Below are positions 56,941-63,160 of a stretch of DNA of 64,000 bases, in pieces. Position numbers: made by a program. Location: assembly GCF_057098645.1 (NCBI RefSeq), contig NZ_CM169472.1. The stretch is one strand, 5' to 3'. Positions within the stretch are counted from its first letter, which is position 1; each line of letters begins with the position of its first letter.

Positions 56941-59900
56941 TAACCGCTGATTTACCCGGCGCAGTCTCTCCTGCGCCGGTGTATTAACCTATCTCCTGTA
57001 ACGCATGTCTCTGGCGTTCGACGATATTGGTCCACAAATTGTCTTTATCGTCAGTCCACAAATTAATCAGCAAGGCAAAAAAGCGTTCAGCTGCCGGAGA
57101 AAGCACGGCATCTTTGCGGCGAATAATCCCCAATGTCCGACGTATAACGGGTTCCACCAGTGGGATACCAATAATCGAAGAATAGGGCGCATGGGGCATT
57201 GCCAGACCAGGAAGCGCTGAAATCCCCAGTCCTGCCTCCACCAGTCCTAATGACGTCGAAAGATGACGCACTTCGTAAAACCAGTCCAGCTTCCAGGGCT
57301 TGTCGGCTAGCTGTTGTTCTATCAACAGTCGGTTGCCGCTGGAGGAGCGTACGCCAATCATTTTGTAACCCACTAACTCCTGCCATTCTACAAGCTGCTT
57401 TTTGGCCAATGGATGAATTTGTGACGTTGTTCATGTTTATGCCAAAGTCTGATTCGTTACATAGCTCCGATTCCATGCAATTATTCGTGCCTTGTTCCAG
57501 AATCCGCACTTTAATATTGGGATACAGCTCATTAAATTTACCGATTGCCAGCGGTAAAAAATAAAATACTGCGGTCGGAATACACGCTAACGTCACCATA
57601 CCACGATGATAAGCATTCATATCACGAATATTAAAAAGCGTTTCATCGAATTTCTTTATTAATTCCCGCGCCTCCGGGAGCAACCTTTTTCCTGCTTTTG
57701 TTAACGTAACCTTGCGAGTTGTACGCTCAAATAGTTGAATATGTAAATCTTCCTCCATCTTTTTTATTCTTCGCGTTAATGCAGGTTGCGTAATGTTGAG
57801 TAATTTAGCGGCATTGTTAAATGAACTGGACTCTGCCAGTATGACAAATGCCTTCATACTTGATAATTCATGCTTCATTATTACTCCGGAAAATGGAAGC
57901 GTTGATTTTGGGTGGCTGGCCGTTAAAAATTTTAACTGCATTTAGCCAACTTAAATTAATGAAAAAATGTTATTAATCGTTGAGCTAAAGTCATTAGAGA
58001 TGCTTTGCCCTTAATGTAACCATATCGCAATAAGTTATGTTTTTAAATTGAGGGCATTATTATGAAAAAAATACCCTGCGTGATGATGCGAGGTGGAACC
58101 TCGAGGGGCGCGTTCCTGTTAGCGGAACATTTACCCGAAGATCAAACGCAGCGCGATAAAATATTGATGGCAATTATGGGTTCCGGTAACGATCTGGAAA
58201 TTGACGGTATTGGCGGCGGTAATCCACTGACCAGTAAAGTCGCCATTATAAGCCGTTCCAGCGATCCGCGTGCTGATGTTGATTATCTGTTTGCTCAAGT
58301 TATCGTCCATGAGCAACGTGTCGATACCACGCCTAACTGCGGCAATATGCTGTCTGGCGTTGGGGCATTCGCCATTGAAAATGGTTTGATTGCAGCGACT
58401 TCGCCAGTTACTCGCGTACGTATCCGCAACGTCAATACGGGTACGTTTATCGAAGCTGATGTGCAAACGCCAAATGGTGTAGTCGAGTACGAGGGTAGCG
58501 CCAGAATTGACGGCGTACCGGGTACTGCCGCACCGGTTGCACTCACTTTCCTGAATGCCGCTGGAACCAAAACCGGAAAAGTTTTCCCGACTGATAATCA
58601 GATTGATTATTTTGACGATGTCCCGGTGACCTGTATCGATATGGCGATGCCAGTCGTCATTATTCCGGCTGAATATCTGGGAAAAACAGGCTATGAATTA
58701 CCGGCGGAACTGGATGCCGACAAAGCATTATTAGCCCGCATTGAATCTATCCGTCTACAAGCGGGTAAAACAATGGGCTTAGGCGATGTCAGTAATATGG
58801 TTATCCCTAAACCTGTGCTTATTTCTCCAGCGCAGAAAGGCGGGGCAATTAATGTGCGTTATTTTATGCCGCATTCTTGCCATCGCGCGCTGGCGATAAC
58901 CGGTGCTATTGCTATTTCCAGTAGTTGTGCATTGGAAGGCACCGTCACCCGACAAATCGTCCCTTCTGTAGGATACGGCAATATCAATATTGAACACCCC
59001 AGTGGTGCGCTCGACGTTCATTTAAGTAATGAAGGTCAGGATGCCACGACGTTACGCGCATCTGTTATTCGGACAACCAGAAAAATATTTTCCGGTGAAG
59101 TTTATCTTCCCTGAAAAAATTCGTTGTCAGGATAAGGACAATCAATAAAGGACTTCTGTATGAGTCATACAGAAAGAACAGGATTTTAAATGAATAAGAA
59201 ATCGTTATGGAAGCTAATTCTGATATTAGCGATCCCATGTATTATTGGTTTTATGCCAGCTCCGGCAGGATTAAGCGAACTGGCGTGGGTGCTTTTTGGT
59301 ATTTACCTGGCGGCCATTGTGGGGCTGGTTATCAAGCCTTTCCCGGAACCTGTCGTACTGTTAATTGCTGTTGCTGCCTCCATGGTGGTGGTCGGTAACT
59401 TATCCGACGGTGCGTTTAAGACCACCGCCGTATTAAGCGGTTACTCTTCAGGTACCACCTGGCTGGTGTTCTCGGCGTTTACCTTAAGCGCCGCATTTGT
59501 GACCACCGGCTTAGGTAAACGTATTGCCTATTTGCTGATTGGTAAAATTGGTAGCACTACCCTGGGGCTGGGTTACGTTACGGTATTTCTCGATCTGGTA
59601 CTGGCTCCGGCAACACCGTCTAACACCGCGCGTGCGGGCGGCATTGTGTTACCGATCATCAACAGCGTGGCGGTGGCTTTGGGGTCCGAACCGGAAAAAA
59701 GTCCGCGTCGTGTCGGACATTACCTGATGATGTCCATTTACATGGTCACCAAAACCACCAGCTATATGTTCTTTACCGCAATGGCGGGGAACATTCTGGC
59801 GCTGAAAATGATCAACGACATTCTGCACCTGCAAATTAGCTGGGGGGGATGGGCGCTGGCCGCCGGATTGCCGGGCATCATTATGCTGCTGGTTACTCCG

Positions 59901-62900
59901 CTGGTGATTTACACCATGTATCCGCCAGAAATTAAGAAGGTGGATAATAAAACCATCGCCAAAGCGGGCCTTGCCGAACTGGGACCGATGAAAATCCGCG
60001 AAAAAATGCTGCTCGGTGTCTTTGTGCTGGCGCTGCTGGGCTGGATTTTCAGTAAGTCCCTGGGGGTTGATGAATCCACCGTGGCAATCGTTGTTATGGC
60101 GACCATGCTGCTGCTGGGTATCGTTACCTGGGAAGACGTGGTTAAAAATAAAGGCGGCTGGAATACCTTAATCTGGTACGGCGGTATTATCGGCTTAAGC
60201 TCCTTATTATCGAAAGTTAAATTCTTCGAATGGTTAGCTGAAGTCTTTAAAAATAACCTGGCATTTGATGGTCACGGTAACGTTGCTTTCTTCGTTATTA
60301 TTTTCCTCAGCATCATCGTGCGTTATTTCTTCGCTTCCGGTAGTGCCTATATCGTTGCCATGTTGCCGGTATTTGCCATGCTGGCGAACGTCTCCGGCGC
60401 ACCGTTAATGTTAACCGCGCTGGCACTGTTGTTCTCCAACTCCTATGGCGGCATGGTTACTCACTATGGCGGCGCGGCAGGTCCGGTCATCTTTGGCGTG
60501 GGTTACAACGATATTAAATCCTGGTGGTTGGTCGGTGCGGTACTGACGATATTAACCTTCCTGGTGCATATCACCCTCGGCGTGTGGTGGTGGAATATGC
60601 TGATCGGCTGGAACATGCTGTAAATATACTCGTCATACTTCAAGTTGCATGTGCTGCGTCTGTGTTCGCTCACCCCAGTCACTTACTTATGTAAGTGACT
60701 GGGGATTCACTCGCTTGTCGCCTTCCTGCAACTCGAATTATTTAGAGTATATCCATTTATTATCTTTCTGCGCACTTCACGGTGCGCAGATATCTGGAGC
60801 ATTTGATGATCAAGTTATCTGAAAAAGGCGTGTTTCTCGCCAGTAATAACGAAATAATTGCCGAAGAACATTTCACCGGCGAAATTAAAAAAGAAGAAGC
60901 CAAAAAAGGCACTATTGCCTGGTCTATTCTCTCTTCGCATAATACGTCCGGAAATATGGATAAACTTAAAATTAAGTTTGATTCATTAGCCTCTCACGAT
61001 ATTACCTTTGTTGGTATTGTACAGACCGCTAAAGCGTCCGGTATGAAACGTTTCCCGCTGCCGTATGTGCTGACCAACTGCCATAACTCACTCTGCGCCG
61101 TCGGTGGCACCATTAACGGTGATGACCATGTTTTTGGTTTATCGGCGGCTCAGCGTTATGGCGGTATTTTTGTGCCTCCGCACATTGCGGTCATCCATCA
61201 ATATATGCGTGAGATGATGGCAGGCGGTGGCAAAATGATCCTCGGGTCAGACAGCCACACCCGTTACGGTGCATTAGGGACAATGGCAGTCGGTGAGGGC
61301 GGCGGTGAGTTGGTAAAACAGCTGCTTAATGACACCTGGGATATCGACTATCCGGGAGTTGTTGCGGTGCATCTGACCGGAAAACCAGCGCCGTATGTGG
61401 GGCCGCAGGATGTGGCGTTGGCTATCATCGGTGCCGTGTTCAAAAACGGCTACGTCAAAAACAAAGTGATGGAATTCGTAGGTCCCGGTGTTGCTGCGCT
61501 CTCTACCGATTTCCGTAACAGCGTTGACGTTATGACCACTGAAACGACCTGTTTAAGTTCTGTCTGGCAAACCGATGAAGAAGTCCATAACTGGCTGGCG
61601 CTGCACGGTCGCGGCCAGGATTACTGCCAGCTTAACCCTCAACCGATGGCGTACTACGATGGCTGCATCAGCGTTGATTTAAGCGCCATCAAACCAATGA
61701 TTGCGCTGCCGTTCCACCCGAGCAACGTGTATGAAATCGACACGCTGAACCAGAACCTGACCGACATTCTACGTGAGATTGAAATTGAGTCCGAGCGCGT
61801 GGCGCACGGTAAAGCCAAACTCTCGCTGCTGGATAAAGTGGAAAATGGCCGCCTGAAAGTGCAGCAGGGGATTATCGCGGGCTGTTCTGGCGGTAACTAC
61901 GAAAACGTTATCGCGGCGGCGAATGCACTGCGCGGTCAATCCTGTGGCAATGACACCTTCTCGCTGGCGGTTTACCCGTCATCACAGCCGGTGTTTATGG
62001 ATTTAGCCAAAAAAGGTGTGGTAGCAGATTTGATTGGCGCAGGCGCAATTATCAGAACCGCGTTCTGTGGCCCATGCTTTGGCGCGGGCGATACGCCAAT
62101 CAACAACGGTTTGAGTATTCGCCACACCACGCGTAACTTCCCGAACCGCGAAGGCTCTAAGCCAGCTAATGGGCAGATGTCAGCGGTGGCGTTGATGGAC
62201 GCTCGTTCTATCGCTGCGACTGCGGCAAACGGTGGCTATTTAACCTCTGCCAGCGAACTCGATTGCTGGGACAACGTGCCGGAGTACGCCTTCGATGTAA
62301 CGCCGTATAAAAATCGCGTCTATCAAGGCTTTGTGAAAGGGGCGACCCAGCAACCGCTGATTTACGGACCGAACATTAAAGACTGGCCGGAATTGGGTGC
62401 GCTGACTGACAATATCGTCCTCAAAGTGTGCTCGAAGATCCTCGACGAAGTGACCACCACCGACGAATTGATTCCTTCCGGTGAAACCTCTTCTTATCGT
62501 TCAAATCCGATTGGTCTGGCGGAGTTTACCCTGTCTCGCCGTGATCCCGGTTATGTTGGCAGAAGTAAAGCGACTGCTGAGCTGGAAAATCAGCGTCTGG
62601 CGGGGAATGTCAGCGAGCTGACAGAGGTGTTTGCGCGCATTAAGCAGATTGCTGGTCAGGAGCATATTGATCCGCTGCAAACTGAAATTGGCAGCATGGT
62701 CTATGCGGTGAAACCAGGCGATGGTTCTGCGCGTGAACAGGCGGCGAGCTGCCAGCGTGTGATTGGCGGTCTGGCGAATATTGCCGAGGAGTACGCGACT
62801 AAACGCTACCGTTCTAACGTCATCAACTGGGGGATGTTACCTTTGCAGATGGCGGAAGTGCCAACCTTTGAAGTGGGGGATTACATTTACATCCCTGGTA

Positions 62901-63160
62901 TTAAAGCGGCGCTGGATAATCCGGGTACGACGTTTAAAGGTTATGTGATCCATGAAGATGCGCCGGTAACGGAAATTACGCTCTATATGGAAAGTCTGAC
63001 TGCTGAAGAGCGCGAGATTATCAAGGCGGGTAGTTTGATTAACTTCAATAAAAACCGTCAGATGTAAAAAGCACCATGTGAATGTAGGTCGCATTCGGCA
63101 CTTATTGTCGGATGCGATGCTGGCGCATCTTATCCGACCTACAAATCGCATCGAACCGTA

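What the first reader, a model, noticed from the sequence alone, without database searches (positions are those of the whole stretch)
56984..63067. Disrupted LysR regulator ybhD next to the uncharacterised ybhH-ybhI-ybhJ cluster
The ybhD reading frame is broken between its HTH/N-terminal part and its effector-binding domain; the two parts lie in different frames, consistent with an out-of-frame deletion of about 60 bp (length inferred from expected protein size, not measured). The divergently transcribed ybhHIJ genes encode a PrpF-like isomerase, a CitT-like DASS transporter and an aconitase-family hydratase, a coherent but uncharacterised module probably acting on a tricarboxylate or unsaturated dicarboxylate. 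Loss of its putative regulator may silence or derepress it in this strain.
Basis: partly seen in the sequence, partly recalled or inferred. Interest (0 to 1): 0.4.

Follow-up and report, generated by a model that had tools for sequence, protein, structure and literature searches.

The report
Broken ybhD regulator gene, 59-bp deletion
An E. coli strain of the O145:H28 type has lost 59 bases from the regulator gene ybhD through slippage between two 9-base repeats, an ordinary strain-specific gene loss that probably leaves the neighbouring, still poorly understood ybhH-ybhI-ybhJ acid-metabolism genes switched on.

Summary
ybhD (minus strand, 56984-57878) lacks exactly 59 bp (gene nt 464-522) compared with intact ybhD. 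Apart from the gap it is identical to O145:H28 ybhD. The deletion lies between two copies of CATCCATTG, and one copy is kept (57407-57415). This is the signature of a short-direct-repeat slippage deletion.

The product is 157 native residues (HTH, linker, one third of the effector domain) followed by 106 out-of-frame residues. K-12 has a single 954-bp gene.

The junction is absent from 5,426 complete E. coli genomes. The exact frameshift protein is nevertheless encoded on 12 public contigs, one of them identical to the window, so it is an inherited allele and not an artefact. The same deletion also occurs on two other ybhD backgrounds, 18 SNPs apart, so the site is a recurrent hotspot.

ybhH, ybhI, ybhJ and the control region are intact. 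[quoted passage not shown] That is inferred, not shown.

The family assignments hold: YbhH is PrpF-family, nearest LigU; YbhI is DASS; YbhJ is aconitase-family. The substrate is unknown.

Verdict: an ordinary pseudogene of low interest, with a small twist in the recurrent hotspot.

The parts
56984..57878 (-). ybhD pseudogene, 895 bp instead of 954 bp. LysR-type regulator gene carrying the 59-bp deletion.
   Evidence: one 59-nt gap and 0 mismatches against intact O145 ybhD. K-12 has a single 954-bp CDS.
57087..57878 (-). Frameshifted reading frame from the native ATG: 263 aa, made of 157 native residues plus 106 out-of-frame residues. The stop codon is at 57087-57089.
   Evidence: translation. 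HTH_1 at residues 6-64, LysR_substrate profile positions 4-70 only; this exact 263-aa sequence exists in public assemblies.
57687..57863 (-). Region coding the winged-HTH DNA-binding domain (residues 6-64), intact.
   Evidence: PF00126, 76 bits.
57407..57415 (-). Deletion junction. This is the single retained copy of the 9-bp direct repeat CATCCATTG (CAATGGATG on the + strand). The intact gene has two copies 59 bp apart.
   Evidence: The same junction is seen in L002-L005, L019 and L020.
56984..57409 (-). Out-of-frame remnant coding native YbhD residues 177-317 (RD-II and the C-terminal part of the effector domain). It is a mechanical 141-aa TTG ORF and lacks the DNA-binding domain.
   Evidence: (LysR_substrate profile 91-205).
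57879..58061 (.). ybhD-ybhH divergent control region, unchanged relative to intact-ybhD relatives. It contains a dyad GCCGTTAAAA-A-TTTTAACTGC (57919-57939, includes a T-N11-A) and ATTAAT-N11-ATTAAT (57955-57977). The second element, together with the block downstream of it, is conserved in Edwardsiella.
   Evidence: The operator assignment is inferred, not shown.
58062..59114 (+). ybhH, intact (350 aa). PrpF-family isomerase closest to LigU/GalD.
59190..60623 (+). ybhI, intact (477 aa). DASS-family anion transporter.
60806..63067 (+). ybhJ, intact (753 aa; the mechanical ORF starts at a GTG at 60782). Aconitase-family hydratase with Cys360, Cys421 and Cys424.

Best explanation
ybhD in this strain is a null, or at best severely crippled, allele. 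It was made by a 59-bp deletion between two copies of the 9-bp direct repeat CATCCATTG, which lie 59 bp apart inside the gene. The cause is replication slippage or short-homology recombination, which keeps one repeat copy.

The deletion removes the nearly invariant segment DFSPLVNEPFVLACRRDHPL (residues 158-177) and shifts the frame. The DNA-binding domain is then followed by only the first third of the effector domain and 106 nonsense residues.

The allele is inherited in a small clade related to O145:H28. The same deletion has arisen independently in other E. coli lineages, so the site is a hotspot.

Shown here: the lesion, its repeat-mediated anatomy, its presence in independent assemblies, its recurrence, and the integrity of ybhH, ybhI, ybhJ and the control region.

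Inferred: YbhD binds at ybhH/ybhI and ybhH rises strongly in a K-12 ybhD knockout. Loss of YbhD here should therefore derepress ybhH (probably with ybhI) and abolish any ligand-dependent control. The module imports, isomerises and hydrates an unsaturated di- or tricarboxylate whose identity is unknown.
For: Lesion and microhomology.

Frame and domains.

Conservation of the deleted segment across E. coli, Klebsiella and Edwardsiella orthologues.

Not an artefact:
- The exact 263-aa product is on 12 contigs from NCBI and Logan assemblies of different runs.
- L002 (GCA_015672185.1) is 100% identical to the window over 13.9 kb.
- 9-bp repeats are too short to collapse in assemblers that use k-mers of 21 bases or more (inference).

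Recurrence:
- L019 and L020 have the identical 59-bp gap on ybhD alleles that differ at 18 sites.
- Distinguishing SNPs lie 47 nt upstream and 2-99 nt downstream of the junction.

Rarity:
- The junction 45-mer is found in 0 of 5,426 complete genomes.
- The positive control for this query design found the delA allele in 1 genome.

Target genes intact.

Regulatory direction: PMC9068703.

Module coherence: the LysR / PrpF / DASS / aconitase-family block is conserved in Edwardsiella and Klebsiella in different genomic neighbourhoods.
Against: No expression data exist for this strain. The knockout result comes from K-12, in one medium, at late exponential phase.

LTTRs often both repress without ligand and activate with it. 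Loss could therefore give a basal level below full induction.

The truncated protein keeps the HTH and linker helix. In other LTTRs that part can dimerise and bind DNA (knowledge), so residual repression is possible.

The held supplements of PMC9068703 gave no fold changes for ybhI or ybhJ.

ybhJ sits behind a 182-bp gap and may have its own promoter.

Whether the module is expressed or useful at all in this lineage is unknown. Most O145:H28 relatives have ybhH broken by an IS629 remnant, which suggests the module is dispensable.
Confidence: 0.75

Rival explanations
1. Sequencing or assembly artefact. The deletion is not in the living strain.
For: No complete RefSeq genome carries it. The window's source is not known to me.
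Against: The identical junction is found in assemblies from at least four independent data sets for the same allele, and in two other backgrounds. The endpoints sit exactly in a 9-bp direct repeat. That is a biological signature and is too short to mislead assemblers.
Confidence: 0.02
2. The truncated YbhD (HTH, linker helix and partial RD-I) still binds the operator but can no longer respond to a ligand. ybhHIJ would then be locked off or uninducible rather than derepressed.
For: The HTH_1 domain and the linker region are intact. Isolated DBD-linker fragments of other LTTRs dimerise and bind DNA (knowledge, not tested here).
Against: LTTR repression normally needs tetramers assembled through the effector domains. 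The product loses RD-II and carries 106 nonsense residues, so it probably misfolds and is degraded (inference).
Confidence: 0.12
3. Neutral decay with no phenotypic consequence. The module is cryptic or dispensable in this lineage and ybhD loss is one step of erosion.
For: Most O145:H28 complete genomes already have ybhH split by an IS629 remnant. Shigella and some E. coli carry other ybhD lesions together with IS insertions or deletions in ybhH/ybhI. The allele is rare.
Against: ybhD is present in 5,391 of 5,426 genomes and matches in full length in 5,328. ybhH, ybhI and ybhJ are fully intact in the carriers. The K-12 knockout has a transcriptional phenotype and a malate-dependent growth phenotype. 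This rival is compatible with the molecular explanation and differs only on fitness.
Confidence: 0.45
4. Adaptive loss. Recurrent deletion at the repeat hotspot is selected because constitutive ybhHIJ expression helps in some niche, for example plant-derived tricarboxylates in the bovine gut.
For: The same deletion occurs on three backgrounds. Several other independent ybhD null alleles leave ybhH/ybhI intact (L008, L011, L012, L014). In Bacillus, the analogous LysR / PrpF-family isomerase / transporter system TarR-TarAB assimilates trans-aconitate (PMC11495376).
Against: Recurrence is expected from the repeat alone. Carriers are very rare: 14 contigs in a huge collection, 0 of 5,426 complete genomes and 0 metagenome contigs. 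There is no substrate or fitness evidence.
Confidence: 0.07

Closest known systems
E. coli K-12 YbhD (LysR-type regulator of ybhH/ybhI; Rodionova et al. 2022, PMC9068703)
   Same: It is the same gene. The intact allele of the window's lineage is 99% identical in protein to K-12. The divergent arrangement is the same and the control region is nearly identical, with 2 nt differences.
   Different: The window allele lacks 59 bp and cannot make the effector-binding domain. It is a natural counterpart of the laboratory ybhD deletion mutant, with a residual DBD-containing polypeptide.
Short-direct-repeat (slipped-strand, RecA-independent) deletions, as classically described for lacI hotspots in E. 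coli (knowledge)
   Same: The endpoints lie in a perfect 9-bp direct repeat, one copy is retained, the deleted length equals the repeat plus the spacer, and the event recurs in independent lineages.
   Different: Nothing is unusual. The mechanism itself (slippage versus single-strand annealing, RecA dependence) cannot be resolved from sequence.
TarR-TarA-TarB trans-aconitate assimilation system of Bacillus velezensis (PMC11495376)
   Same: A divergent LysR regulator sits next to an operon that starts with a PrpF-superfamily isomerase followed by an importer.
   Different: - TarR is an activator, whereas YbhD behaves as a repressor in the knockout.
- TarB is an MFS transporter, whereas YbhI is DASS.
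- The ybh module adds an aconitase-family hydratase.
- YbhH scores as LigU/GalD-like.
- No trans-aconitate phenotype is known for E. coli.
LigU/GalD (4E)-oxalomesaconate isomerase of the protocatechuate 4,5-cleavage and gallate pathways (PDB 6P3H/J/K)
   Same: It is the best characterised homologue of YbhH: a full-length alignment of 316 bits, the shared PLTSKVA and NCGN motifs, and an NCBIfam equivalog score above the cut-off.
   Different: No ring-cleavage dioxygenase, LigJ/GalB hydratase or LigK/GalC aldolase lies nearby. The partners here are a DASS transporter and an Fe-S hydro-lyase.
Isomerase plus aconitase-family hydro-lyase pairs: PrpF+AcnD (2-methylcitrate cycle, PMC5690661) and Mii+DmdAB (nicotinate fermentation; knowledge)
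   Same: A PrpF-family isomerase is paired with an aconitase-family enzyme acting on an unsaturated di- or tricarboxylate. Mii (3G7K) and PrpF (2PVZ) are the next PDB hits of YbhH.
   Different: YbhJ is far below the AcnD, AcnA and AcnB equivalog cut-offs and has its own family, NF008503. The substrate is unknown.

Membership tests
LysR-type transcriptional regulators (YbhD) | N-terminal winged-HTH (PF00126) | tested here: met
   residues 6-64, 76 bits, in the window allele.
LysR-type transcriptional regulators (YbhD) | Complete C-terminal effector-binding domain (PF03466) in the same polypeptide | tested here: not met
   only profile positions 4-70 of 209 are in frame. Positions 91-205 lie in another frame. 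The intact relative covers 4-204. The window therefore holds a pseudogene of a family member.
LysR-type transcriptional regulators (YbhD) | Divergent target operon with a T-N11-A dyad in the shared control region | tested here: inconclusive
   candidate dyads at 57919-57939 and 57955-57977. The second is conserved in Edwardsiella. No binding data were examined at base resolution.
Short-direct-repeat deletion | Endpoints in a direct repeat, one copy kept, deleted length equal to repeat plus spacer | tested here: met
   CATCCATTG at gene nt 464 and 523, with 9 + 50 = 59 bp lost.
Short-direct-repeat deletion | Recurrence of the identical deletion in independent lineages | tested here: met
   three ybhD backgrounds 18 SNPs apart, with flanking SNPs within 2-99 nt of the junction.
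Short-direct-repeat deletion | RecA-independent replication slippage | not testable with these tools
   Needs genetics.
PrpF / LigU isomerase family (YbhH) | Full-length PF04303 match, and an NCBIfam OMA_tautomer equivalog score above the cut-off | tested here: met
   559 bits; 515 against a cut-off of 440.
PrpF / LigU isomerase family (YbhH) | Catalytic Lys/Cys pair (LigU Lys66/Cys100 by my recollection) | tested here: met
   the alignment conserves PLTSKVA (K59) and NCGN (C93). The residue roles come from memory of the LigU literature and were not checked in a paper here.
PrpF / LigU isomerase family (YbhH) | Pathway context of a true OMA isomerase (ring-cleavage dioxygenase, OMA hydratase LigJ/GalB, CHA aldolase) | tested here: not met
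   the neighbours are pgl, ybhD, ybhI (DASS), ybhJ (aconitase family) and ybhC.
PrpF / LigU isomerase family (YbhH) | Isomerase activity on oxalomesaconate, aconitate or methylaconitate | not testable with these tools
   Needs an enzyme assay.
DASS transporters (YbhI) | TIGR00785 / PF00939 match above the cut-off | tested here: met
   553 bits against a cut-off of 199.
Aconitase superfamily (YbhJ) | PF00330 domain with the three [4Fe-4S] cysteine ligands | tested here: met
   297 bits. Cys360 (GCSGG) and Cys421/Cys424 (CGPC). Their role as ligands is by analogy with mitochondrial aconitase (knowledge).
Aconitase superfamily (YbhJ) | Equivalog of a bona fide aconitase (AcnA, AcnB, AcnD) | tested here: not met
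   31-96 bits against cut-offs of 686-1420. The protein belongs to its own family, NF008503 'hydratase'.
TarR-TarAB trans-aconitate assimilation system | LysR regulator, PrpF-family aconitate isomerase and MFS importer TarB, with growth on trans-aconitate | tested here: not met
   The transporter is DASS, not MFS. Isomerase specificity and growth were not tested. The resemblance is in architecture only.

The most novel reading that the evidence does not exclude
The paired CATCCATTG repeats make ybhD a one-way, mutation-prone switch. The same 59-bp deletion arises repeatedly and is retained in some lineages because constitutive ybhHIJ expression lets E. coli import and metabolise a plant- or host-derived unsaturated tricarboxylate, for example trans-aconitate from forage or an oxalomesaconate-like lignin or gallate product. 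This would both assign a substrate to an orphan E. coli module and show convergent regulatory loss.
Probability: 0.06. Interest if true: 0.5.

Novelty: new member of a known kind. Interest (0 to 1): 0.17.

Why it matters
On its own, very little. It is a strain-private pseudogene of a minor regulator, produced by a textbook mechanism.

Its practical uses are three:
- It is a clean 59-bp clade marker within O145:H28-like STEC.
- It is a natural ybhD-null strain with intact ybhHIJ. That makes it a ready-made strain for asking what the orphan isomerase / transporter / Fe-S hydratase module does.
- It is a documented recurrent deletion hotspot, so annotators should expect the split ybhD calls to reappear.

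Tried and rejected
- AlphaFold2 of intact YbhD from a 4-sequence alignment, intended to map the deleted segment onto secondary structure, gave mean pLDDT 39. It is unusable. I relied on Pfam profile coordinates and orthologue conservation instead.
- A junction scan of JGI metagenome contigs found nothing.
- A literature search for the assembly and run accessions returned only chance string matches.
- My DOI guess for the LigU structure paper was not held. The LigU catalytic-residue numbering therefore rests on memory.
- The supplements of PMC9068703 contain no fold changes for ybhH/I/J in the held text.
- Rfam found no RNA family in 55900-64000.
- The promoter and terminator consensus scans found nothing above shuffle expectation in the control region or between ybhI and ybhJ. 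No promoter is assigned.
- I considered that the common 125-aa C-terminal YbhD fragment (on 1,000 or more contigs) meant widespread ybhD loss in E. coli. The commonest underlying lesion (delA535) is in only 1 of 5,426 complete E. coli genomes. Among the ten loci read, other lesions occur in Shigella (L013) and in assemblies with several frame breaks that look noisy (L006, L010).
- I considered programmed frameshifting or a compensating indel. I rejected both because the downstream sequence is identical to the intact gene.

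
Full report
**What the window is**

The 3' third of the window (40000-64000) is 100.0% identical to the nadA-gal-mod-pgl-ybh region of E. coli O145:H28 chromosomes. Gene order is pgl, ybhD (minus strand), ybhH, ybhI, ybhJ, ybhC, as annotated in RM9872, C325 and the K-12 derivative J53.

**The observation**

ORF listing shows two overlapping minus-strand ORFs in different frames where one ybhD gene is expected. 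Alignment with intact ybhD of O145 RM9872 shows a single 59-nt gap. There is no other difference over 1,131 nt, which includes the whole ybhD-ybhH control region.

A script places the deletion at gene nt 464-522, equivalently up to 473-531. The intact gene carries CATCCATTG twice, at nt 464 and 523, and the window keeps one copy (plus-strand 57407-57415). So 9 + 50 = 59 bp are lost and the frame shifts by 2.

From the annotated ATG at 57878 the gene now encodes 157 native residues and then 106 out-of-frame residues, with a stop at 57087-57089. Native residues 177-317 remain readable only in another frame (56984-57409).

Pfam finds the HTH (residues 6-64) and only positions 4-70 of the 209-position effector-domain profile in the first frame. 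Positions 91-205 lie in the second frame. The break is therefore inside the effector-binding domain, not at the domain boundary.

The lost segment DFSPLVNEPFVLACRRDHPL is almost invariant among the E. coli, Edwardsiella (87% identical) and Klebsiella (64% identical) orthologues.

**Is it real, and how common is it?**

- Every one of the 90 complete genomes listed in two searches spans 1,660 bp where the window has 1,601.
- I designed a 45-nt junction query so that an intact gene offers no 28-nt exact word. It matches none of 5,426 complete E. coli genomes.
- The same design, applied to another ybhD lesion, did find its one carrier, so the negative result is meaningful.
- The exact 263-aa frameshift product is present in the 15-billion-protein collection on 12 contigs. 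These are NCBI assembly GCA_015672185.1 and Logan assemblies of several independent runs. All carry the junction. The NCBI contig is 100% identical to the window over 13.9 kb.
- The allele is therefore genuine and inherited in a small clade. The window probably comes from that assembly or a clone-mate.
- A scan of JGI metagenome contigs found no further copy.

**Mechanism of the lesion**

A deletion whose ends fall in a perfect 9-bp direct repeat, with one copy retained, is the classical product of slipped-strand mispairing or short-homology recombination. This is established knowledge.

ybhD has only three loci with direct repeats of 9 bp or more within 150 bp. Chance microhomology of 9 bp has a probability of about 4e-6.

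The protein cluster of the frameshift product contains two further members with the same junction peptide. At the DNA level they carry the identical 59-bp gap, but on different ybhD alleles:
- L019 is 2 SNPs from the K-12 allele and 18 from the window.
- L020, from a metagenome, is 18 SNPs from both.

The loci are only 98.4% and 97.0% identical to the window. Distinguishing SNPs lie 47 nt upstream and 2-99 nt downstream of the junction. Spread of a single event by recombination would therefore need patches of roughly 60-155 bp. Independent recurrence is the parsimonious reading, so this is a deletion hotspot.

**Other ybhD lesions**

Public assemblies also contain:
- a 1-nt loss in the A5 run at nt 531-535;
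- delG507;
- nonsense codons at 184 and 185;
- IS1-associated replacements, the last mainly in Shigella, some together with IS hits in ybhH or ybhI.

In complete E. coli genomes these are rare. delA535 is in 1 of 5,426, and ybhD is matched in 5,391 of 5,426.

Within O145:H28, 22 of the 26 closest complete genomes have ybhH interrupted by a roughly 0.69-kb IS629 remnant. The window, C325, UTME-3, RM12761 and RM13516 do not. The module has therefore been hit twice, in different genes, in this clonal group.

**The neighbours**

ybhH (350 aa), ybhI (477 aa) and ybhJ (753 aa) are intact. They are identical to C325 and differ at 1, 1 and 3 residues from K-12.

YbhH:
- It is a full-length PrpF-family protein and passes the NCBIfam equivalog cut-off for 4-oxalomesaconate tautomerase.
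- It differs by one residue from PDB 6OTV, 'putative isomerase YbhH'.
- Its nearest characterised relative is LigU, the (4E)-oxalomesaconate delta-isomerase. Methylitaconate isomerase and PrpF come next.

YbhI is a DASS transporter.

YbhJ:
- It belongs to its own aconitase-superfamily family (NF008503) and scores far below the true aconitase equivalogs.
- It has the Cys360 / Cys421 / Cys424 pattern.
- No close solved structure exists.

The LysR / PrpF / DASS / hydratase block recurs in Edwardsiella tarda and in Klebsiella aerogenes, in unrelated genomic neighbourhoods. In Klebsiella it sits beside the citrate-fermentation genes citS-oadGAB-citAB. This supports a functional module acting on a di- or tricarboxylate.

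The lig/gal pathway partners of a true oxalomesaconate isomerase are absent, so I do not file YbhH as one.

**Consequence**

Rodionova et al. 2022 report three things (PMC9068703):
- a YbhD ChIP-exo site at ybhH/ybhI;
- strong ybhH upregulation in a K-12 ybhD deletion mutant;
- co-regulation by Nac, and a malate-dependent growth phenotype.

The control region here is unchanged. It contains candidate LTTR dyads, and ATTAAT-N11-ATTAAT together with the block downstream of it is conserved in Edwardsiella.

The likeliest outcome is therefore constitutive derepression of ybhH, and probably ybhI, with loss of any ligand control. This step is inferred.

A residual DNA-binding activity of the truncated protein, or no phenotype at all, cannot be excluded.

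**Comparison with known systems**

The lesion is an ordinary short-repeat deletion. The gene and its regulatory direction are published.

The module resembles two known arrangements in architecture:
- the Bacillus TarR-TarAB trans-aconitate system;
- isomerase plus aconitase-type pairs such as PrpF/AcnD.

It differs from these in transporter class, in regulator sign and in the presence of YbhJ.

ybhJ was reported 18-fold up in E. coli grown on algal exudate rather than LB (PMC10972114). That is a weak hint of plant-type substrates.

**Verdict**

This is an undescribed but ordinary null allele of a known regulator. The only twist is that the same deletion recurs independently. Interest is low.

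Noticed in passing
L001 8017-8667 (O145 RM9872); corresponds to window about 58659: Most O145:H28 complete genomes (22 of the 26 nearest) carry a roughly 0.69-kb IS629 remnant inside ybhH. The window, C325, UTME-3, RM12761 and RM13516 lack it. Two independent lesions, in ybhH and in ybhD, therefore hit the same module in one clonal group.
   Followed up: partly
L007, L008, L011, L015 (gene nt 531-535); L012; L013; L014; L009: Other independent ybhD null alleles occur in public assemblies: loss of one A in an A5 run, delG507, nonsense codons at 184 and 185, and IS1 replacements (Shigella). The 125-aa C-terminal fragment is called on 1,000 or more contigs, but the delA allele is in only 1 of 5,426 complete E. 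coli genomes.
   Followed up: partly
L016 6483-7915 (Edwardsiella tarda CP100797.1): The ybhI (DASS) homologue between the PrpF-like and aconitase-like genes is split into two overlapping ORFs (230 and 260 aa), and no gene was called there. It is probably a pseudogene in that strain.
   Followed up: no
L017 2865-18286 (Klebsiella aerogenes CP166156.1): The Klebsiella version of the module has an extra CitMHS-family transporter between the ybhI and ybhJ homologues. It lies next to a second LysR gene and to the citrate-fermentation cluster (citAB two-component system, oadGAB, citS-like 2HCT).
   Followed up: no
window 60782-60805: The mechanical ybhJ ORF starts at a GTG 24 nt upstream of the RefSeq-annotated ATG (60806). 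A 182-bp gap separates ybhI from ybhJ, so ybhJ may have its own promoter. The consensus scan found none.
   Followed up: partly
ybhD gene nt 693/777 and 874/898 (window about 57186-57102 and 57005-56981 on the minus strand): Two further direct-repeat pairs of 9-11 bp in ybhD (ACTGGTGGA 84 bp apart; AATTTGTGGAC 24 bp apart) would give in-frame deletions if they slipped. I did not search for such alleles.
   Followed up: no
literature, PMC10972114: ybhJ transcription was reported 18-fold higher in E. coli co-cultured with Chlamydomonas in minimal medium than in LB. This is a possible hint that the module responds to photosynthate or plant-type organic acids.
   Followed up: no
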